From Pseudomonas phage vB_Paer_PsCh: 64,000 nucleotides of DNA. The number at the start of each line of letters is the position of its first letter. Positions within the stretch are counted from its first letter, which is position 1. The translations under genes and the position numbers were made by a program. The stretch lies in sequence record OM870969.1. One strand, given 5' to 3'. The notes beneath the pieces are model-generated. The model saw nothing but the letters and a program-made list of their open reading frames with translations, was not told the origin of the DNA and made no database searches. Shown here piece after piece: positions 3,699 to 64,000 of this stretch.

Positions 3699-5561
3699 AT
3701 GTCCAAAATGACCGTGGCCCAAATTGCGGCTATGCACGGTATCGATTTGTATTCTGACCACAAGACCGCTTGTCCCCAATGCCGGAAGAAAGGCGCGGAC
3801 AACAGCGGAGACAACCTGAAGGTTTATGGGACGGATCGTAATACCGGGGAACACAAAGGTGCCTATTGTTGGGCGTGTGGGTACACCTTGCTCTCTGAAG
3901 AGCAGGAAAGAGACGCCCGGGGAGAAGACGAAGAGGAGTGGAATTTCGTGGGAACTGAATTTAACGCAGAGATCAACGCTCAAATTAAAGAGCAGTGCTC
4001 GTATGATCCGCGTGGTTATCGTGGCCTGTCCAAGGAAACTTGCCAGTATTTCGGAGTGCTACATGGTTTCGACCCGGAGACTGGCGAGATTGCAACTCAG
4101 CTATATCCTACTACTACTAATTACGAACTCACTGGTTACAAACAGCGGATCATGCCGAAGAACTTCTCTGAGCCTATCGGAGAGACAGGTAAGGATTGCG
4201 AGCTTTTTGGTCAGTTCCGGTTCAAGAATAGCAACAGCAAGAAGGTGCTTATTGTAGGCGGTGAGGTTGACCAGCTATCAGCATTCCAGATGCTCAAGGA
4301 GTATGACGACCGGCGAGCAGGCGGTAAGAGTGATTATGAACCGACTCCAGTGGTCAGCCCTACTATCGGTGAGAGTGGGGCATGGAAGCAGCTACAGGCT
4401 CAGTATGAGTGGCTAGACCGGTTCGAGCAAATCATTCTCTGTTTCGACAGCGATGACGCAGGACGAGAGGCAGCAGACAAGGCCGCCGATAAGCTTCCGA
4501 AGGGCAAGGTGTTCATGATGGAAATGAACCGTAAAGACCCTAACGAGTATTTGAAAGCTGGGCGTCAATCGGAGTTTGTCAGTGCATTCTATCGAGCCCG
4601 TACATGGACCCCTAGCGGTATTGTAGGGTCTGATGCACTCGACGCTCGAATGTATGAAGCTGTTCAGGTTGAGAAGATTCCTCTGCCACCGTTCGCTAAG
4701 AAGCTCCAGAAGGCTATGGCGGGAGGCATCCCTTTGGGCCGGATTGTGAATATCGGCGCTGCATCGGGAATGGGTAAATCTACTGTAGTGGACGAGTTCA
4801 CTCTGTTCTGGATTTATAACTCGCCTCATATGCCGGGTACTGTGACTCTGGAATCGGACTGCGGGGAATACGCAATCAAGCTGCTGAGCCGGAAGGTAGG
4901 TGAGAAGGCAGATTTGTACGAGACTGTTGAAGAGAAAGTGGCGTTCCTTGATCGGCATCGTGATGCTCGCTACGACTTGTGGCACAAAGAAGATGGGAGT
5001 CCTCGCTTCTATCTGATCGATGACCGAGACGGAAGCCTAGCAGCCCTCAAGGCTCAAATCGAGCAACTGATTATTCAGTTTGAGTGCCGTGTTATTATTC
5101 TGGACCCGCTTCAGGATATTCTGGACGGATTGAGCAACGAAGAGCAGTCGGTATTCATGCGCTGGCAAAAGGGTATGACCAAGAGCCACCGAGTGACGTT
5201 CATCAACATCAACCACGTCCGTAAGAGTGGTGGTGGTCAGAAGGCTAACTCGGCAGGTGCTGAACTGTACGAAGAAGATTTCCAAGGGTCTTCGTCCATC
5301 TTCAAATCTGGTGCAGCTAACATCCTGATGTGGCGGAACAAGGACGCGGAGAACGAGTTCGAAAAGAACCTGATTAACGTGAAGCTCTCTAAGTGCCGAT
5401 GGACTGGCCGCACTGGAATGATGGGCAATTGGTACTACGACGTTGAGACTCATACGATCTGGGACTTGGACGACTATCTGGACCGATATCCTGACAAGCG
5501 CCGTGAGTATGAGGCTTGGATGGCTCAGAAGGAAGAGGAAGGCCGAGACACGGAATACTAA
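3699..5561 (+). CDS. DNA primase/helicase (zinc-finger-TOPRIM-DnaB-like)
   Basis: N-terminal CPQCRKKG...CWACG zinc finger, central TOPRIM-like acidic region, C-terminal Walker A GAASGMGKST and DnaB-like helicase motifs. Confidence 0.85.
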   Translation: MSKMTVAQIAAMHGIDLYSDHKTACPQCRKKGADNSGDNLKVYGTDRNTGEHKGAYCWACGYTLLSEEQERDARGEDEEEWNFVGTEFNAEINAQIKEQCSYDPRGYRGLSKETCQYFGVLHGFDPETGEIATQLYPTTTNYELTGYKQRIMPKNFSEPIGETGKDCELFGQFRFKNSNSKKVLIVGGEVDQLSAFQMLKEYDDRRAGGKSDYEPTPVVSPTIGESGAWKQLQAQYEWLDRFEQIILCFDSDDAGREAADKAADKLPKGKVFMMEMNRKDPNEYLKAGRQSEFVSAFYRARTWTPSGIVGSDALDARMYEAVQVEKIPLPPFAKKLQKAMAGGIPLGRIVNIGAASGMGKSTVVDEFTLFWIYNSPHMPGTVTLESDCGEYAIKLLSRKVGEKADLYETVEEKVAFLDRHRDARYDLWHKEDGSPRFYLIDDRDGSLAALKAQIEQLIIQFECRVIILDPLQDILDGLSNEEQSVFMRWQKGMTKSHRVTFININHVRKSGGGQKANSAGAELYEEDFQGSSSIFKSGAANILMWRNKDAENEFEKNLINVKLSKCRWTGRTGMMGNWYYDVETHTIWDLDDYLDRYPDKRREYEAWMAQKEEEGRDTEY

Positions 5562-5621: not shown

Positions 5622-8336
5622 ATGCAACAACGGTTTGAAACAATCGAGCAATACCTCGAATGGATGGGAAATAACAATTTCACTAATATGACTTGGGATA
5701 TCGAGTCTACGGGCCTGCTGGACGAATCGTCCATCGATTACACTGCAAGCCCCTACAAGATCAAGCCCAGCTACAGTCATCACTGTATCGTAGTAGAAGA
5801 GCACGGCGGTAACATTCTGGCGTTCTACGATGGCCCCACTTACATCTTCGACGGTCGAGAGTACACTGAGAAGCTGCCGAAAGCATCTTCCATGCTACAC
5901 ACTGAAGAAGTTGTGACTCTCAAGGACTACACTCCGGTAGAGTATATTCACCTGCCGCTGAAAGAGTTCAAGAACTATGTGCTCAAGCGCAAGATCAAGC
6001 GCGTAGTGGCTCACAACATGATTAACTTCGACCTTATGTCGATGAAGCTTGTGGAAGATATGGACTTTACTATCGGCGTCGAGCACAGGGATGGCGGTCT
6101 GACTACGTGGTCTGCTGACACTTGGATGGGCAAGCAAGTGGTATTCGACGATACCCTCGTTATCTCCAAGACTTGTAACCCTGACCTGTTCGGCGGTCAC
6201 AGTCTGGATAAGCTGTCTCGTCGTGCAGGTGGTGACACCAAGATTGACTTCCGTAAGCATTTGGCACCGGATGTTCGATTCCTCGACTTCGCAGCCGATA
6301 TGCTCTACTACTGTATCTATGACGTAAAGGCGAACACCGCTGTATGGCATTGGTTGCAGGACCACGAAGATTACCAACTGTCCGACCGTGACAACTACAT
6401 CAAGAATTGGCTGTCCCCGATTCAGTTGGAGAAGAAGGTTGCAGAGATCATCACCTATCAGGAGCACCGAGGGTTTGTTCTGAATGTTGATCTCTGTGAA
6501 AAAGCTGTGAAAGACTTGGACGCCAAGATGGAAGAGCGTCGGGCCCGGGTGGAACCTGTGCTTCCTCCTCGACCGGCAACCAAGAAATTCATGGCAGACT
6601 ACACTCCACCTGTTCGACAGTTCAAGAAGAACGGGGAGATCACCACTTACCTACAGAAGTTCATTGAAAAGATCGGCGCTCAATTGAAAGAGGGCGACGA
6701 CAGAACCATGATCTTTGAGGGTAAGGAGTACAAGCTGCCTCTCCCGGCAGACGTACCGCTGAAGACGGAAATGCCTGCTAAGATCGGGGACACAACTCAC
6801 ATCAAGCAATGGCTTATGGGTGAGTTTGGTTGGATTCCATCAGAGTGGAAAGAGACTGATCTGACTGTGGATCAGAAGAAGATCAAGCTTCCGATGGAAA
6901 ACATCGTTGCTAAGATCGATCGCTGGCTGGATGTAACGTATAGCACAGCGTACAAGGAAGAGCGGCTGGACGGGTTCGGGGATTACATGAAGATCACCCC
7001 TCGTAGCACCCGCGCGTATGTACGTCAGAGGTTGATTGATCGTGCAAGCAAGGGGGGCTGTAAGGTTCTCACTAACCCTAGCTTCACAAAGGGCCAAGAG
7101 AAAGAAATGTGTCCAGACCTCGAACGCATTGCAGAACAGTTTCCGTTCGCGAAGGATGTGATTGAGTACCTGACCTTTAAGCACCGGCGAAGCGCAATCC
7201 TCGGTGGCGGCATGGACTGGGACGAAATGGAGGATGGAGAGGAGCCGGAAAAAGGTTACCTTGCAAGCATTCGTCAGGACGGCAGGATTCCCACGCCTGC
7301 TGACACTTGCGGGGCTGCTACTAGCCGGATGAAGCACCGGAAGGTTGCTAACGTTCCTCGGATCACCTCGTTGTACGGGGCTGAGCTTCGAGAGTTGTTT
7401 GGGGTTGGAGATGGGTTCTTCCAAATTGGATACGACTTCGATTCCTTGGAAGCACGTAAAGAGTCGGCCTACTGCGATCAGTACGATCCGACAAAGGAAT
7501 ACTGTAAGTCACTCATGATGGAGAAGCCATTCGACGTTCACACGATGATGGCTAAGCGTATTTCCGAGATTATCGGTCGTCAATTTAACCGGTCTCCTGC
7601 GAAAAACGTAAAATACGGGTGTACGTACGGTGCTCAAGCTGGTAAAGTGGCAAAAACCATTGGTGCCGATTTGCAAACGGGTCAACTGGTATTCGATGCG
7701 TTCTGGGATGCAGCATTCCCATTGAAAGCACTGAAGGATGACCTAACCAAGCAGTGGGAGGCCAACGGTAAGAAGTATATTGTTGGAGTGGACGGTCGCC
7801 GAGTTCCTACTCGTTCGGCTCACGCTATCCTGAACAGCTTGTTCCAGAGTGGCGGTGTTATCTGTGCTAAACGTGCTATGGTGATTCATGACCAACTGCT
7901 GGAGAAAGAAGGTCTGAAGGTTGACTTTTTCAAAGAAGACTGGAAGAACAAGCCGGAATTCTGCCAACAAATGATCGCGTACCACGACGAAGCGCAGTTG
8001 GAAGTAACCGCCAAGTCGGTGAGCTTCAAGATGTTCCCTTGGTCCCTAGTAGGCGGCAAGCCGGAAGGGGAGAAGGAGCGAGAGGCAGCCGAGAAGGAGT
8101 TGAAAGCTCTAGCTCAGGCTTACAAGGACGAACAATTGGCTAGCACTGGCAAGGTGTGGAGTGATATCGCACACTACAGCAAAGGTGAAGGCGGGGTGTT
8201 TGTAGCTTACTGCCGCGCTGGAGAACTTGCCACGAAGGCCGTGAGAGCTGCGGGAGAGTTCTACTCTACTCCTCTGGTGCCTATCGAGCTGACCGCTGGC
8301 TACATCGTTGGTCGATCTTGGAAGGATTGCCACTAA
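5622..8336 (+). CDS. DNA polymerase, family A (Pol I/T7-like) with 3'-5' exonuclease domain
   Basis: 904 aa. Exo motif WDIESTGL; motif B RSPAKNVKYGCTYGAQ; motif C YHDEAQLEV. Confidence 0.9.
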   Translation: MQQRFETIEQYLEWMGNNNFTNMTWDIESTGLLDESSIDYTASPYKIKPSYSHHCIVVEEHGGNILAFYDGPTYIFDGREYTEKLPKASSMLHTEEVVTLKDYTPVEYIHLPLKEFKNYVLKRKIKRVVAHNMINFDLMSMKLVEDMDFTIGVEHRDGGLTTWSADTWMGKQVVFDDTLVISKTCNPDLFGGHSLDKLSRRAGGDTKIDFRKHLAPDVRFLDFAADMLYYCIYDVKANTAVWHWLQDHEDYQLSDRDNYIKNWLSPIQLEKKVAEIITYQEHRGFVLNVDLCEKAVKDLDAKMEERRARVEPVLPPRPATKKFMADYTPPVRQFKKNGEITTYLQKFIEKIGAQLKEGDDRTMIFEGKEYKLPLPADVPLKTEMPAKIGDTTHIKQWLMGEFGWIPSEWKETDLTVDQKKIKLPMENIVAKIDRWLDVTYSTAYKEERLDGFGDYMKITPRSTRAYVRQRLIDRASKGGCKVLTNPSFTKGQEKEMCPDLERIAEQFPFAKDVIEYLTFKHRRSAILGGGMDWDEMEDGEEPEKGYLASIRQDGRIPTPADTCGAATSRMKHRKVANVPRITSLYGAELRELFGVGDGFFQIGYDFDSLEARKESAYCDQYDPTKEYCKSLMMEKPFDVHTMMAKRISEIIGRQFNRSPAKNVKYGCTYGAQAGKVAKTIGADLQTGQLVFDAFWDAAFPLKALKDDLTKQWEANGKKYIVGVDGRRVPTRSAHAILNSLFQSGGVICAKRAMVIHDQLLEKEGLKVDFFKEDWKNKPEFCQQMIAYHDEAQLEVTAKSVSFKMFPWSLVGGKPEGEKEREAAEKELKALAQAYKDEQLASTGKVWSDIAHYSKGEGGVFVAYCRAGELATKAVRAAGEFYSTPLVPIELTAGYIVGRSWKDCH

Positions 8337-61582: not shown

Positions 61583-61659
61583 GGGTCGGTGAGCGTAATT
61601 GGCAACCTACTGGATTCCAAATCCTCGTATTCTCTGTTCGAATCGGAGTCGGCCCGCCA
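61583..61659 (+). tRNA. tRNA-like element, anticodon arm not resolvable (possible pseudo-tRNA)
   Basis: Good acceptor (GGGTCGG/TCGGCCC), T-arm CTCTG-TTCGAAT-CGGAG and encoded CCA, but no clean anticodon stem by eye. Confidence 0.35.
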
Positions 61660-61864: not shown

Positions 61865-61869
61865 ATTTT

Positions 61870-61957
61870 AGTGAGTAAATCAGATAGGTTCTGAGGCTCC
61901 CTGCTAAGGAGTACGTCTGCTAACGCGGATGTGGATCGAGACCACTGCTCACTGCCA
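61870..61957 (+). tRNA. tRNA-Ser (anticodon GCT), type II long variable arm
   Basis: 88 nt. Anticodon arm GCTCC-CTGCTAA-GGAGT; acceptor AGTGAGT/GCTCACT; CCA. Confidence 0.55.
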
Positions 61958-61976
61958 AAATAAGTGATTTTAAGTG

Positions 61977-62005
61977 TTGACAAACTGAATTTTTCATGTT
62001 TTAAT
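61977..62005 (+). promoter_or_regulatory. sigma70 promoter (TTGACA-17-TTTAAT)
   Basis: GTGTTGACAAACTGAATTTTTCATGTTTTAAT. Confidence 0.45.
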
Positions 62006-62040
62006 ACACTTATCAGATCAAGAAATACTTAGCGAGTAGC

Positions 62041-62120
62041 CCTGAGTAGGTCGGGAACTAGTCTAGAAAACTAGGCCACTGTGATGAACGGTGAGGGTTC
62101 AACTCCTTTACTCGCTGCCA
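62041..62120 (+). tRNA. type II tRNA (Ser-like; anticodon loop CTAGAAA parses as AGA; uncertain)
   Basis: Acceptor AGCGAGT/ACTCGCT, 3-bp D stem CCC/GGG, anticodon stem CTAGT/ACTAG, T-loop TTCAACT, CCA. A34 would be unusual. Confidence 0.4.
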
Positions 62121-62126
62121 AATTTT

Positions 62127-62211
62127 GGCCCTGTGGTGGAATTGGTATACACATCAGTCTTAGAAACTGACGCCGAGAGGATTGAGGGTTCAAGTCCCTC
62201 CGGGGCCACCA
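62127..62211 (+). tRNA. tRNA-Leu (anticodon TAG), type II
   Basis: Acceptor GGCCCTG/CGGGGCC; anticodon arm TCAGT-CTTAGAA-ACTGA; T-arm AGGGTTCAAGTCCCT; CCA. Confidence 0.65.
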
Positions 62212-62220
62212 AATTAAGAA

Positions 62221-62297
62221 TCTCTTTTGCTATTTGGTAAGGGTTCGAGTCCCTTCCCGGCTGCTATGGTCGGTCTACGGTGGCCAAATAGTGAGAG
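62221..62297 (+). ncRNA. structured RNA candidate: ~15-bp outer stem (TCTCTTTTGCTATTTGG / CCAAATAGTGAGAGA) enclosing an orphan T-arm-like hairpin AAGGGTTCGAGTCCCTT
   Basis: Inverted repeat read directly from the sequence. No acceptor, D or anticodon arms, so not a tRNA. Confidence 0.4.
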
Positions 62298-62368
62298 AGC
62301 TAGGGGACATGACGAAGGTAGCGCTGCTTTCCGACCTCCCCGGCGCTATAAAAGTTATCATGAAGGGG

Positions 62369-62396
62369 TTGACAAACAAGAAATTCATGATAATAT
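62369..62396 (+). promoter_or_regulatory. sigma70 promoter (TTGACA-16-TAATAT)
   Basis: GGTTGACAAACAAGAAATTCATGATAATAT. Confidence 0.5.
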
Positions 62397-62421
62397 AGGT
62401 ACATAGAGTAACAAACAATAC

Positions 62422-62497
62422 GGCCAGATAGCTCAATTGGTAGAGCCCCCGACCGATAATCGGGTGGTTGAAGGTTCAAGTCCTTCTCTGGCCACCA
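62422..62497 (+). tRNA. tRNA-Ile (anticodon GAT)
   Basis: Acceptor GGCCAGA/TCTGGCC; D-arm GCTCAATTGGTAGAGC; anticodon arm CCCGA-CCGATAA-TCGGG; CCA. Confidence 0.75.
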
Positions 62498-62589: not shown

Positions 62590-62676
62590 GGTCGTTGTAG
62601 AGATAGATGGCTACTATCATCCGGCTGTAACCCGGACGCCATAGGCTAGAGGTTCAATTCCTTCCTTCGACCACCA
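62590..62676 (+). tRNA. tRNA-Tyr (anticodon GTA), type II; acceptor-stem base imperfect in my parse
   Basis: Anticodon arm TCCGG-CTGTAAC-CCGGA; long variable arm; TTCAATT T-loop; CCA. Confidence 0.45.
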
Positions 62677-62679
62677 AAT

Positions 62680-62760
62680 AGCGAGAGCGTTAAGACTGGC
62701 TGGCGCTGTCCCTCGGCTCATAACCGAATACAAGTGGTTCGATTCCACCTCTCGCTTCCA
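62680..62760 (+). tRNA. tRNA-Met/Ile2-like (anticodon CAT)
   Basis: Perfect acceptor AGCGAGA/TCTCGCT; anticodon loop CTCATAA; T-arm GTGG-TTCGATT-CCAC; CCA. 81 nt with atypical D-arm. Confidence 0.45.
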
Positions 62761-62994
62761 AATTGCACTCCGAGGAACCCTAAGTGGTGGGTTCAGTGTC
62801 GCTACCTATCTCGGTAAGGGGAAGCGCCTAAGCTGGCACGGGTAATTGAGTAGCTGTGATAAGCTACTGGCAGCCAGTATAAATCGTCCGGCTCGGGCCC
62901 GTTATAGCTCCTAGATTTGAATTAGATGCTGTAAGCCATAGGAGGTGATCCAGTATCTCCCGGAGGGGCCCGGGTTAACAACCTCATGAATTTA

Positions 62995-63678: not shown

Positions 63679-64000
63679 CCAATGTCGTGCAATGGTATAT
63701 CGCGTTGACGCTTTTAGGCTCTCTGGATCGTAAGCCAGTAAAGCGAGAATAGCGGGCTCTCGCAGCAGAGCGATAGGTGGTTCGATTCCACAACATGACA
63801 CTCTTTCCTCCTCGCCTGTGCTGAACGGTTTCCTCCTCCTTTCCCGTCTCACAGGCTCTATTCCCTGCCCTTTAAGCATTTATGGTGATGCACCGGCTTT
63901 GTAACCCGGCGAATTCTGTTCAAGTCAGGAATGGGGCACCAATTCACTATCAAAGAACCCGCAAGCTCCCGATAGGGTTCACACTCTATAAGGTTGTAGC

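What the first reader, a model, noticed from the sequence alone, without database searches (positions are those of the whole stretch)
62221..62297. Orphan T-arm hairpin enclosed in a roughly 15-bp long-range stem inside the tRNA array: candidate novel structured RNA
TCTCTTTTGCTATTTGG (62221-62237) pairs with CCAAATAGTGAGAGA (62283-62297). The enclosed 45 nt contain a perfect T-stem-loop AAGGG-TTCGAGT-CCCTT but no acceptor, D or anticodon arms. The element is transcribed with tRNAs (promoter 61977, next promoter 62369) yet cannot be a tRNA. It may be a processing-guide element, an RNase P/RNase Z decoy, a tRNA-derived regulatory RNA, or a degraded tRNA remnant.
Basis: seen in the sequence. Interest (0 to 1): 0.55.

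Follow-up and report, generated by a model that had tools for sequence, protein, structure and literature searches.

The report
Permuted tRNA-like RNA in phage tRNA array
A Pseudomonas phage keeps, among its tRNA genes, a roughly 78-base RNA built from tRNA parts in rearranged order; its folded shape has been preserved by evolution, so it probably mimics a tRNA rather than decoding, but its job is unknown.

Summary
Window 62222-62299 (+ strand) folds into a 17-bp closing stem that encloses a canonical T-arm. The fold is stronger than shuffled sequence (z -3.8) and is strand-specific, with four invariant G·U pairs. It is present in all 116 Pakpunavirus records that match this region. All three helices show compensatory base changes.

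It is not a tRNA, not coding, not a terminator and not a host-tRNA fragment, and no Rfam family matches it. The order of its parts is that of a tRNA opened at the anticodon loop, with the acceptor stem closed by a loop and no D stem. This is the layout of the tRNA-like domain of bacterial Y RNAs (YrlA). It fails YrlA membership: no Ro-binding motif, no D arm, no Ro60 gene.

Related phages of the same family (Gorskivirinae) carry a similarly built orphan T-arm element at a tRNA/promoter boundary, with independent covariation support. Homology between the two is unproven.

Expression and function are untested. My best guess is a processed small RNA that acts as a tRNA mimic. A cis-acting processing site is the main rival.

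The parts
62222..62238 (+). 5' strand of the 17-bp closing stem (CUCUUUUGCUAUUUGGU). It occupies the position of a tRNA anticodon-stem 3' strand, extended.
   Evidence: MFE folds and RNAalifold. 100% of cells are paired in 12 variants. There are two compensatory pairs, 62234/62287 (U-A to A-U) and 62237/62284 (G-C to A-U), and four invariant G·U pairs.
62239..62255 (+). T-arm: 5-bp stem AAGGG/CCCUU with the canonical 7-nt T-loop UUCGAGU.
   Evidence: Sequence. The loop and four inner pairs are invariant. The outer pair 62239/62255 is A-U in 4 variants, U-A in 5 and U·U in 3. Rfam's tRNA model aligns it as the T-arm.
62256..62274 (+). Acceptor-like hairpin that directly follows the T-arm: CCGGCU (62257-62262), loop GCUAU (62263-62267), GGUCGG (62268-62273). 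The flanking C62256/U62274 become an A-U seventh pair in EPA1- and PS3-type phages.
   Evidence: Folds. Three pairs show double changes, e.g. CCAGU/ACUGG in EPA1. The G-U at 62260/62270 alternates with G-C. Loop length and sequence vary from 4 to 10 nt. My permuted-tRNA model aligns it to the 7-bp acceptor stem plus a 5-nt closing loop.
62275..62282 (+). Single-stranded joiner CUACGGUG (with U62274: UCUACGGUG). It contains invariant UCUA and GG..G and occupies the position of the D region, but has no D stem.
   Evidence: Unpaired in all folds. UCUA, GG and GG are invariant, and only 62278 (C/U/-) and 62281 (U/C) vary. The D-arm positions of the permuted-tRNA model are deleted here. That the GG contacts the T-loop is inference.
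62283..62299 (+). 3' strand of the closing stem (GCCAAAUAGUGAGAGAG).
   Evidence: Same evidence as the 5' strand.
62127..62211 (+). Context: tRNA-Leu(UAG). Its encoded CCA ends 10 nt before the closing stem, on the same strand.
   Evidence: ARAGORN and Rfam at 60.4 bits.
62369..62396 (+). Context: sigma-70-type promoter (TTGACA, 16 nt, TAATAT, with TG) that starts the next tRNA unit (Ile, Asp, ...).
   Evidence: Promoter scan. Annotated as putative promoter_13 in PAK_P4.

Best explanation
Window 62222-62299 (+) encodes a tRNA-derived structured RNA of about 78 nt that selection maintains in Pakpunavirus.

Anatomy. Read 5' to 3', the parts are:
- a closing stem,
- a T-arm,
- a closed acceptor-like hairpin,
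- a GG-containing single strand,
- the return strand of the closing stem.
This is the order of a cloverleaf that has been circularly permuted at the anticodon loop. The D stem is lost, the 'anticodon stem' is lengthened to 17 bp, and the acceptor ends are joined by a loop. The RNA therefore cannot be charged or decode.

Shown: the fold, its strand specificity, its covariation, its universal retention in the genus, and that it is not a tRNA, a CDS, a terminator or an Rfam family.

Inferred:
- It is transcribed as the last structured element of a tRNA transcription unit and is released by the nucleases that cut out the neighbouring tRNAs.
- The T-loop docks on the conserved GG of the joiner to give a tRNA-like elbow.
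- The RNA acts in trans as a tRNA mimic that binds a factor recognising the acceptor/T-arm helix or the elbow. Candidates are a tRNA-targeting host defence nuclease (decoy role) or a tRNA processing or modification enzyme.

The confidence figure is for the whole statement. By part it is about 0.8 for a selected structured RNA, about 0.55 for the permuted-tRNA reading, and about 0.3 for the trans-acting mimic role.
For: Fold: -32.9 kcal/mol, z -3.8, on the + strand against z -1.4 on the - strand. The four invariant G·U pairs would be A·C mismatches on the other strand.

Covariation: RNAalifold finds the same three helices without guidance, and all six compensatory pairs of the 239-column alignment fall inside the element. 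On 12 distinct variants, 6 pairs show double changes against 1.8 +/- 0.8 in shuffles (0/500), and slid controls give 0-1. In the EPA1 lineage, 8 of about 11 differences form four compensatory pairs in two helices.

Tolerated variation: indels and most substitutions fall in the hairpin loop. The T-loop is invariant.

Retention: 116 of 116 Pakpunavirus records that match the region hold it.

Permuted-tRNA fit: a covariance model I built from 20 phage tRNAs permuted at the anticodon loop aligns the element end to end. The closing stem, T-arm and 7-bp acceptor with 5-nt loop all align and the D-arm is deleted. Scores are 22.8 bits (window), 25.3 (PAK_P1) and 21.6 (EPA1).

Part order in YrlA: the published description of YrlA gives the same order, T stem-loop then acceptor-like stem-loop then D (PMC4201824).

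Independent lineage: Gorskivirinae phages of the same family have an orphan T-arm element with the same three-way-junction layout at a tRNA/promoter boundary. It has 9 pairs with double changes against 3.9 +/- 1.4 in shuffles (1/500).

Processed tRNA-like RNAs do accumulate from these arrays: PAK_P3 ncRNA2 is an abundant processed species of about 120 nt on northern blots (PMC10914365). Its homologue lies in this window at 63684-63800.
Against: - No expression data exist for this element. The PAK_P4 RNA-seq annotation lists only sRNA1, which lies elsewhere.
- Divergence is shallow: one genus, at least 90% identity. Most covariation comes from three or four lineages.
- Some variants carry mismatches: G·G in Moonstruck, and U·U at the outer T-stem pair in three variants.
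- The permuted-tRNA model also scores plain tRNA-tRNA junctions at 10-32 bits, so the score alone does not discriminate.
- There is no D stem. In the MFE fold the closing stem abuts the T-arm with no joiner, so coaxial stacking could differ from that of a tRNA.
- The Gorskivirinae element has no significant sequence similarity outside the T-arm (z 0.2-1.9), and its second hairpin is separated from the T-arm by 6 nt.
- No binding partner is identified. The mimic or decoy role is inference only.
Confidence: 0.45

Rival explanations
1. It is a cis-acting processing or punctuation element at the end of the tRNA transcription unit. Either the 17-bp stem (22 bp if stacked on the T-stem) is an RNase III-type site, or the T-arm plus 6-7-bp hairpin is cut by RNase P within the closing loop. 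Either cut would separate read-through transcripts from the unit that starts at the next promoter. On this view the RNA has no role of its own.
For: The element sits 10 nt after tRNA-Leu and about 70 nt before the next promoter, with no terminator between them. The analogous elements in Gorskivirinae and in phage 254 also lie directly upstream of a TTGACA-type promoter. M. smegmatis YrlA, which has a 7-bp closed acceptor-like stem, is cleaved by RNase P (PMC4201824). A variable loop with conserved stems fits a purely structural signal.
Against: Other internal promoters of the same array (61668, and possibly 61977) follow a tRNA directly, with no such element. tRNAs already provide RNase P and RNase E sites, so an extra signal is not obviously needed. 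The invariant T-loop and GG joiner suggest a tertiary fold rather than a plain duplex. The acceptor-like stem is only 6 bp plus a C·U in most variants.
Confidence: 0.25
2. It is a non-functional relic: the junction left by tandem duplication or partial deletion of a tRNA gene. Its complementary segments pair by descent and have not yet decayed.
For: A tandem duplicate of one tRNA gives, at its junction, exactly this part order with self-complementary acceptor and anticodon strands. Ordinary tRNA-tRNA junctions score similarly with the permuted model. Phage vB_PF_Y1-MI has a complete permuted cloverleaf that occurs in no relative, so it looks recent. Several Pakpunavirus variants carry mismatches. 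The element is absent from the sister genus Nankokuvirus.
Against: A relic does not predict compensatory double substitutions in three helices, 100% pairing of a 17-bp stem across all variants, an invariant T-loop, or retention in 116 of 116 genomes. The 17-bp stem is far longer than any anticodon stem. There is no detectable paralogy to any tRNA of the array beyond the T-arm: local alignment score 26 against 20 +/- 2 for shuffles, with a shuffle maximum of 31.
Confidence: 0.12
3. It is a true bacterial-type Y RNA (YrlA family) that recruits a Ro60/Rsr protein.
For: The order of parts is the same as in YrlA (PMC4201824). The Rfam YrlA model gives a weak hit (21.2 bits, E 0.049) to the analogous element of phage Y1-MI.
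Against: The YrlA model gives no hit to the window element even at E <= 10 on 99 nt. The element has no GNCGAA motif and no D stem-loop. None of the 8 ORFs of at least 330 aa in the 64-kb window has a TROVE domain.
Confidence: 0.03
4. It is a DNA-level element (cruciform, operator or recombination site), or a small protein gene, as annotated in some records.
For: An inverted repeat is present. Several GenBank records annotate 'hypothetical protein' CDSs over it, on either strand.
Against: Four invariant G·U pairs and the 14 kcal/mol strand asymmetry argue for RNA. Indels of +4, -1, -2 and +1 nt, and loss of the start codon among close relatives, break every reading frame. The annotated CDSs disagree in strand and frame.
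Confidence: 0.03

Closest known systems
YrlA, the bacterial Y RNA-like family (Rfam RF02553; Chen et al. 2014, PMC4201824)
   Same: The 5' and 3' ends form a stem that replaces the anticodon arm. A canonical T stem-loop comes next, then an acceptor-like stem closed by a loop, then the D region. The RNA is tRNA-derived, cannot be charged, and also occurs in phages.
   Different: The window element is much shorter (about 78 nt against about 114 nt). It has no GNCGAAN0-1G Ro-binding motif, no D stem, no V arm and no neighbouring Ro60/Rsr gene. It gives no score with the Rfam model.
Circularly permuted tRNA genes (Cyanidioschyzon merolae type) and permuted tmRNA genes
   Same: The 3'-half elements (T-arm, acceptor 3' strand) are encoded upstream of the 5'-half elements. 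A plausible origin is tandem duplication followed by loss.
   Different: Permuted tRNA genes are processed back into complete, functional tRNAs (my own knowledge). Here there is no anticodon loop and no D arm, and the 'anticodon stem' is 17 bp. Rfam's permuted-tmRNA model does not hit the element.
T4 RNAC/RNAD (species 1 and 2 RNAs) and PAK_P3 ncRNA2
   Same: These are non-tRNA stable RNAs encoded within a phage tRNA cluster and processed rather than separately initiated. Their function is unknown (PMC9697503; PMC10914365).
   Different: They are longer (about 120-140 nt). PAK_P3 ncRNA2 keeps an open acceptor stem formed by its own ends. Sequence relatedness of the window element to the T4 RNAs was not tested.
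D-arm-less mitochondrial tRNAs and acceptor-T-arm minihelices
   Same: The T-arm is stacked on a roughly 7-bp helix, and a short connector replaces the D arm (my own knowledge).
   Different: Those molecules keep an anticodon arm and a free CCA end, and they are charged. This element has neither.

Membership tests
tRNA (RF00005) | Acceptor stem formed by the 5' and 3' ends, with a free 3' end | tested here: not met
   The 7 nt after the T-arm pair with a strand 5 nt downstream, not upstream. The best upstream 7-mer gives 5 of 7 pairs, at chance level.
tRNA (RF00005) | Anticodon arm and D arm | tested here: not met
   ARAGORN makes no call. The Rfam tRNA model matches only positions 36-71, truncated, at 14.6 bits against the 29-bit gathering score. 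None of the Pakpunavirus records listed annotates a tRNA here.
tRNA (RF00005) | T-arm: 5-bp stem, UUCRANY loop, G53-C61 | tested here: met
   AAGGG-UUCGAGU-CCCUU at 62239-62255. The loop is invariant in 12 variants.
YrlA / bacterial Y RNA (RF02553) | GNCGAAN0-1G motif near the 5' end (the presumed Ro60 contact) | tested here: not met
   The motif is absent from 62212-62305. The feature definition is from PMC4201824.
YrlA / bacterial Y RNA (RF02553) | T stem-loop, then acceptor-like stem-loop, then D stem-loop, all enclosed by the terminal stem | tested here: inconclusive
   The T stem-loop and the closed acceptor-like stem-loop are present in the right order. The D stem-loop is absent; only a 9-nt GG-containing strand stands in its place.
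YrlA / bacterial Y RNA (RF02553) | Reaches the Rfam gathering score (69 bits) | tested here: not met
   No YrlA match over the element at E <= 10.
YrlA / bacterial Y RNA (RF02553) | Encoded within about 4 kb of a Ro60/Rsr (TROVE) gene on the same strand | tested here: not met
   Pfam scan of all 8 ORFs of at least 330 aa in the window finds no TROVE domain. ORFs near the array are short. The roughly 29 kb of the phage genome outside the window was not scanned.
Permuted tRNA gene | 3' half encoded upstream of 5' half, with complementary acceptor strands | tested here: met
   The home-made permuted-tRNA covariance model aligns the T-arm, a 7-bp acceptor with 5-nt loop and the closing stem, at 21.6-25.3 bits in three variants.
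Permuted tRNA gene | All tRNA parts are present, so that processing yields a functional tRNA (anticodon loop, D arm) | tested here: not met
   The 19 D-arm positions of the model are deleted. No anticodon-loop halves are present; a 17-bp stem stands there instead.
Intrinsic terminator | GC-rich hairpin followed by a U tract | tested here: not met
   The scan calls no terminator-like site here. The stem is followed by CUAGGGGAC.
Phage att-type fragment of a host tRNA | Identity to the 3' end of a host tRNA gene | tested here: not met
   The T-arm plus acceptor-strand pattern gives 5 hits among 185,579 species genomes. All are in unrelated MAGs and none is in Pseudomonas.
Protein-coding gene | Reading frame conserved among relatives | tested here: not met
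   Indels that are not multiples of three, and ATG/GTG/AGG/deleted at the start position.

The most novel reading that the evidence does not exclude
Virulent Pseudomonas phages of the family Vandenendeviridae (Pakpunavirus and several Gorskivirinae genera) share a class of Ro-independent, permuted tRNA-like RNAs. Each is an orphan T-arm in a three-way junction, made from the tRNA operon. They work as molecular decoys or adaptors for host factors that recognise tRNA shape, for example tRNA-cleaving anti-phage nucleases. This would be a new kind of RNA-based counter-defence, complementing the phage's replacement tRNAs.
Probability: 0.12. Interest if true: 0.8.

Novelty: new variant of a known kind. 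Interest (0 to 1): 0.55.

Why it matters
Phage tRNA arrays are now understood partly as counter-measures to host nucleases that cut tRNAs. The non-tRNA RNAs encoded in these arrays, such as T4 RNAC/RNAD and PAK_P3 ncRNA1/2, have had no known function for decades.

This element is a compact example with covariation support, and it has a clear structural reading: T-arm, closed acceptor-like helix and a D-loop-like strand on a long stem. That reading makes the question testable by deletion or compensatory mutagenesis, pull-down, and RNase P/III assays.

If the similarly built elements in related phage genera turn out to be the same thing, this would define a new RNA family of tRNA mimics that works without Ro60. 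It also shows that routine annotation mislabels the locus as 'hypothetical protein' on either strand.

Tried and rejected
- **Rfam.** Scans of the array and of the element alone gave nothing beyond a truncated tRNA 3' half and T-arm look-alikes.
- **Erwinia/Salmonella Ounavirinae 'tRNA-OTHER' BLAST hits.** These are a complete odd tRNA that shares only the T-arm, so they are not homologues.
- **Paralogy to other tRNAs of the array.** Not significant: score 26 against 20 +/- 2 for shuffles.
- **Sequence-based model R1.** Searched against the window and the arrays of PAK_P3, REC, Y1-MI and phiEa21-4, it gave only weak hits at E >= 0.27.
- **Pattern scans.** IMG/VR returned 5 loci, all from contigs of Pakpunavirus genome size. 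The metagenome scan returned one chance tRNA-Arg/tRNA-Glu junction. The genome scan found no Pseudomonas tRNA with this 3' end.
- **Permuted-tRNA model R2.** It aligns the element sensibly but also scores ordinary tRNA junctions, so it serves as a description, not a proof.
- **Suppressor-tRNA idea.** The hairpin loop UGCUAUG could be read as anticodon CUA. I rejected this because positions 33 and 37 are non-canonical, the arm is on the wrong side of the T-arm, and the loop varies in length and sequence.
- **Alternative 5-bp pairing GCUAU/GUGGC.** Model R2 proposed it for the window, but it is not kept in PAK_P1-type sequences.
- **Sequence homology between the Pakpunavirus and Gorskivirinae elements.** Not significant outside the T-arm.
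- **Literature.** No paper describes this element.

Full report
**Source and context**

The window is a Pakpunavirus genome, a virulent Pseudomonas aeruginosa myovirus. It is 99.5% identical to PAK_P4 over 61900-62450 and 100% identical to phiMK over 62212-62368. Its right end carries a tRNA array on the + strand. ARAGORN tRNAs. Rfam and relatives' annotations add several more that ARAGORN misses.

The finding lies between tRNA-Leu(UAG), 62127-62211, and a sigma-70-type promoter at 62369-62396 that precedes tRNA-Ile.

**Observation**

RNAfold gives an uninterrupted 17-bp stem, 62222-62238 paired with 62283-62299, with four G·U pairs. Inside it are:
- the T-arm AAGGG-UUCGAGU-CCCUU (62239-62255);
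- a 9-nt single strand, UCUACGGUG.

The 79-nt RNA folds at -32.9 kcal/mol, z -3.80, with 0 of 200 shuffles as stable. The reverse strand folds at -18.4 kcal/mol, z -1.44. Adding the downstream 70 nt adds no significant structure.

**Conservation and covariation**

All 116 phage records that match the surrounding 551 nt also contain the element, at 90.8-100% identity. Every one is a Pseudomonas phage, and all those inspected are Pakpunavirus. I collected 12 distinct variants.

RNAalifold on a 239-column alignment of the whole intergenic region recovers the same three helices. All six pairs with compensatory changes lie inside the element, and the flanks show none. With the structure fixed, the counts on the 12 variants are:
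- 95.4% of cells paired, and 100% in the 17-bp stem;
- 6 pairs with changes on both sides, against 1.8 +/- 0.8 in shuffles (0 of 500);
- 0-1 such pairs when the 3' partners are slid by 1-3 columns.

Examples of compensatory change:
- 62234/62287: U-A to A-U.
- 62237/62284: G-C to A-U.
- 62239/62255: A-U to U-A.
- The hairpin is CCGGC/GUCGG in the window, CCGGC/GCCGG in PAK_P1 and CCAGU/ACUGG in EPA1.

In EPA1, 8 of about 11 differences from the consensus form four compensatory pairs. The T-loop is invariant. The hairpin loop varies freely in sequence and length, from 4 to 10 nt. The four G·U pairs of the long stem are invariant, which together with the strand asymmetry points to an RNA read from the + strand.

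There are caveats. Divergence is shallow. Three or four lineages supply most of the signal. A few variants carry a mismatch: G·G in Moonstruck, and U·U at the outer T-stem pair in three variants.

**What it is not**

- *Not a tRNA.* ARAGORN makes no call. Rfam aligns only a truncated 3' half (T-arm plus 7 nt plus one) at 14.6 bits against the 29-bit threshold. No deposited genome annotates a tRNA here.
- *Not coding.* Close relatives differ by indels of +4, -1, -2 and +1 nt. The only plausible start codon is ATG, GTG, AGG or deleted in different phages. The 'hypothetical protein' CDSs in some records disagree in strand and frame.
- *Not an intrinsic terminator*.
- *Not a recent copy of another tRNA in the array*.
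- *Not a fragment of a Pseudomonas tRNA*.
- *Not in any of the 4227 Rfam families*.

**Structural reading**

After the T-arm, a tRNA continues into the 3' strand of its acceptor stem. Here those 7 nt (C-CCGGCU) pair with a strand just 5 nt downstream (GGUCGG-U). The 'acceptor' is therefore closed by a loop. In EPA1- and PS3-type phages the flanking C·U becomes A-U, which gives 7 bp stacked directly on the 5-bp T-stem. Then comes UCUAYGGYG with invariant UCUA and GG, where U8 to G19 of a D region would be. Last is the return strand of the long stem, where the anticodon-stem 5' strand would be.

The order of parts is that of a cloverleaf circularly permuted at the anticodon loop, without a D stem.

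To test this reading I took 20 tRNAs from these phages and permuted them at the anticodon loop with random 4-nt linkers. I then built a covariance model from them. The model aligns the element from end to end: closing stem, T-arm, a 7-bp acceptor plus a 5-nt loop, and the D-arm deleted. Scores are 22.8 bits (window), 25.3 (PAK_P1) and 21.6 (EPA1). Ordinary tRNA-tRNA junctions also score 10-32 bits, because they supply real T and D arms. The score is therefore descriptive, not proof.

**Comparison with YrlA**

The same order of parts defines the tRNA-like domain of the bacterial Y RNA YrlA (PMC4201824). Rfam's YrlA model accordingly hits a tRNA-Pro/tRNA-Gly junction in this window.

Membership in YrlA fails. 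The element has no GNCGAA motif, no D stem-loop and no model hit. None of the ORFs of at least 330 aa in the window has a TROVE (Ro60) domain.

**Relatives with similar elements**

A scan of tRNA arrays from other Vandenendeviridae looked for T-arms that lack an upstream acceptor partner. Most were ordinary tRNAs that ARAGORN had missed. A few are orphan T-arms.

- *Phage vB_PF_Y1-MI.* It has a complete permuted cloverleaf: T-arm, closed hairpin, UA, then a canonical D-arm, enclosed by a short stem. It scores 27.4 bits with my model and 21.2 bits with Rfam YrlA. It is unique to that phage.
- *Phage 254.* It has a T-arm followed at once by a 7-bp hairpin, just before a promoter.
- *Gorskivirinae.* Thirty records at 80-100% identity (phiPsa315, Kremar, PPSC2, phiPsa300, PE09, Bitten, Amme-3 and others) carry an orphan T-arm element after tRNA-Val or tRNA-Leu. 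In most of the aligned phages a TTGACA promoter box follows directly.

For the Gorskivirinae element, RNAalifold on 7 distinct sequences gives an outer helix, a 7-bp closing helix, the T-arm abutting the 5' closing strand, and a long hairpin with a GNRA tip. In that structure 95.4% of cells are paired, and 9 pairs show double changes against 3.9 +/- 1.4 in shuffles (1 of 500). Slid controls give 0-2.

This is the same three-way-junction plan as in the window, and it also carries a single-stranded U..GGYGG motif. However, primary-sequence similarity to the window element outside the T-arm is not significant. I call the two analogous and possibly homologous. The sister genus Nankokuvirus (PAK_P3) has no counterpart.

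**Expression**

There is no direct evidence for this element. The PAK_P4 RNA-seq study annotated only one small RNA in the array, which lies elsewhere. Long-read transcriptomics of the related PAK_P3 notes that species under about 80 nt are overlooked (PMC10914365).

That study also shows that PAK_P3 ncRNA2 is an abundant, processed species of about 120 nt with no transcription start site of its own. I find that ncRNA2 is a tRNA-like RNA with an acceptor stem and a T-arm. Its homologue lies in this window at 63684-63800, and the acceptor stem covaries between the two. So these arrays do yield stable RNAs that are tRNA-like but not tRNAs.

**Mechanism**

Shown: a + strand RNA structure under selection, built from tRNA modules in permuted order, at the tail of a tRNA transcription unit.

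Inferred, as the best-supported explanation (overall confidence about 0.45): the RNA is released by tRNA-processing nucleases, folds into an elbow-like shape through a contact between the T-loop and the GG joiner, and acts as a tRNA mimic that binds a tRNA-recognising factor.

Rivals:
- A cis-acting processing site for RNase III or RNase P (0.25). This is favoured by the recurring position upstream of promoters.
- A neutral relic of tRNA duplication (0.12). This is disfavoured by the covariation and the universal retention.
- A true Y RNA, or a DNA-level or coding element (about 0.03 each).

**Verdict**

The element is a new variant of a known kind, the tRNA-like structured RNAs, and is closest in architecture to the tRNA-like domain of YrlA. 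Its function is open. Interest 0.55.

Noticed in passing
window 63684-63800 (+): A tRNA-like RNA of about 118 nt with acceptor stem GUCGUG/CAUGAC, a T-arm GGUGG-UUCGAUU-CCACA and a large internal insertion. It is 83% identical to the PAK_P3 ncRNA2 region, with compensatory changes in the acceptor stem (GCUGUG/CACAGC in PAK_P3). In PAK_P3 this RNA is an abundant processed species of about 120 nt on northern blots (PMC10914365). ARAGORN and Rfam do not call it, and the PAK_P4 features listed stop before this stretch.
   Followed up: partly
window about 62802-62904 (+): This is the counterpart of 'PAK_P4sRNA1', a small RNA annotated from RNA-seq in the PAK_P4 record, between tRNA-Met and tRNA-Cys. 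It has no T-arm. I did not analyse its structure.
   Followed up: no
window 61583-61656, 61870-61955, 62031-62118, 62594-62675, 62680-62757 (+): ARAGORN misses five likely tRNAs. They are a Trp(CCA)-like tRNA (Rfam 28 bits), two long-arm Ser-type tRNAs (one with an unusual T-loop, AUCGAGA), Tyr(GUA) and Met(CAU). Each has a 6-7-bp acceptor stem, and relatives annotate Ser, Tyr and Met at these positions.
   Followed up: partly
window 62355-62364 and 62384-62393: A perfect 10-bp inverted repeat, TTATCATGAA / TTCATGATAA. It brackets the -35 box (62369-62374) and overlaps the -10 box of the promoter in front of tRNA-Ile. It is invariant in 10 phages and could be an operator or a 5' leader hairpin.
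   Followed up: no
L024 (Pseudomonas phage vB_PF_Y1-MI, OR500437.1) 5970-6045: A complete circularly permuted cloverleaf between tRNA-Asn and an uncalled tRNA-Tyr: T-arm, closed acceptor-like hairpin, UA, canonical D-arm and a short closing stem. It gives a weak Rfam YrlA hit (21.2 bits) and is not found in any other phage record.
   Followed up: partly
L027 (phiPsa315) 3833-3925, and homologues L035-L041 and L023 1237-1310: An orphan T-arm element in Gorskivirinae phages, after tRNA-Val or tRNA-Leu; in most of the aligned phages a TTGACA promoter box follows directly. It forms a three-way junction with a GNRA-capped hairpin, and 9 pairs show compensatory changes. It is not annotated in the records inspected, and R1 and R2 gave it only weak hits; I did not scan it against Rfam.
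   Followed up: yes
L029 (Pseudomonas phage vB_PseuGesM_254) 6096-6130: An orphan T-arm, ACGAG-UUCGAUC-CUCGU, followed at once by a 7-bp hairpin, ACACACC-GUUU-GGUGUGU. It lies after tRNA-Tyr and about 40 nt upstream of a TTGACT/TATGAT promoter.
   Followed up: no
L001 (PAK_P4) 2017-2427, against window 61865-61900: PAK_P4 carries a 136-aa predicted HNH-type endonuclease gene inside its tRNA array, which this window lacks. This points to homing-endonuclease traffic that could drive duplications and rearrangements in the array.
   Followed up: no
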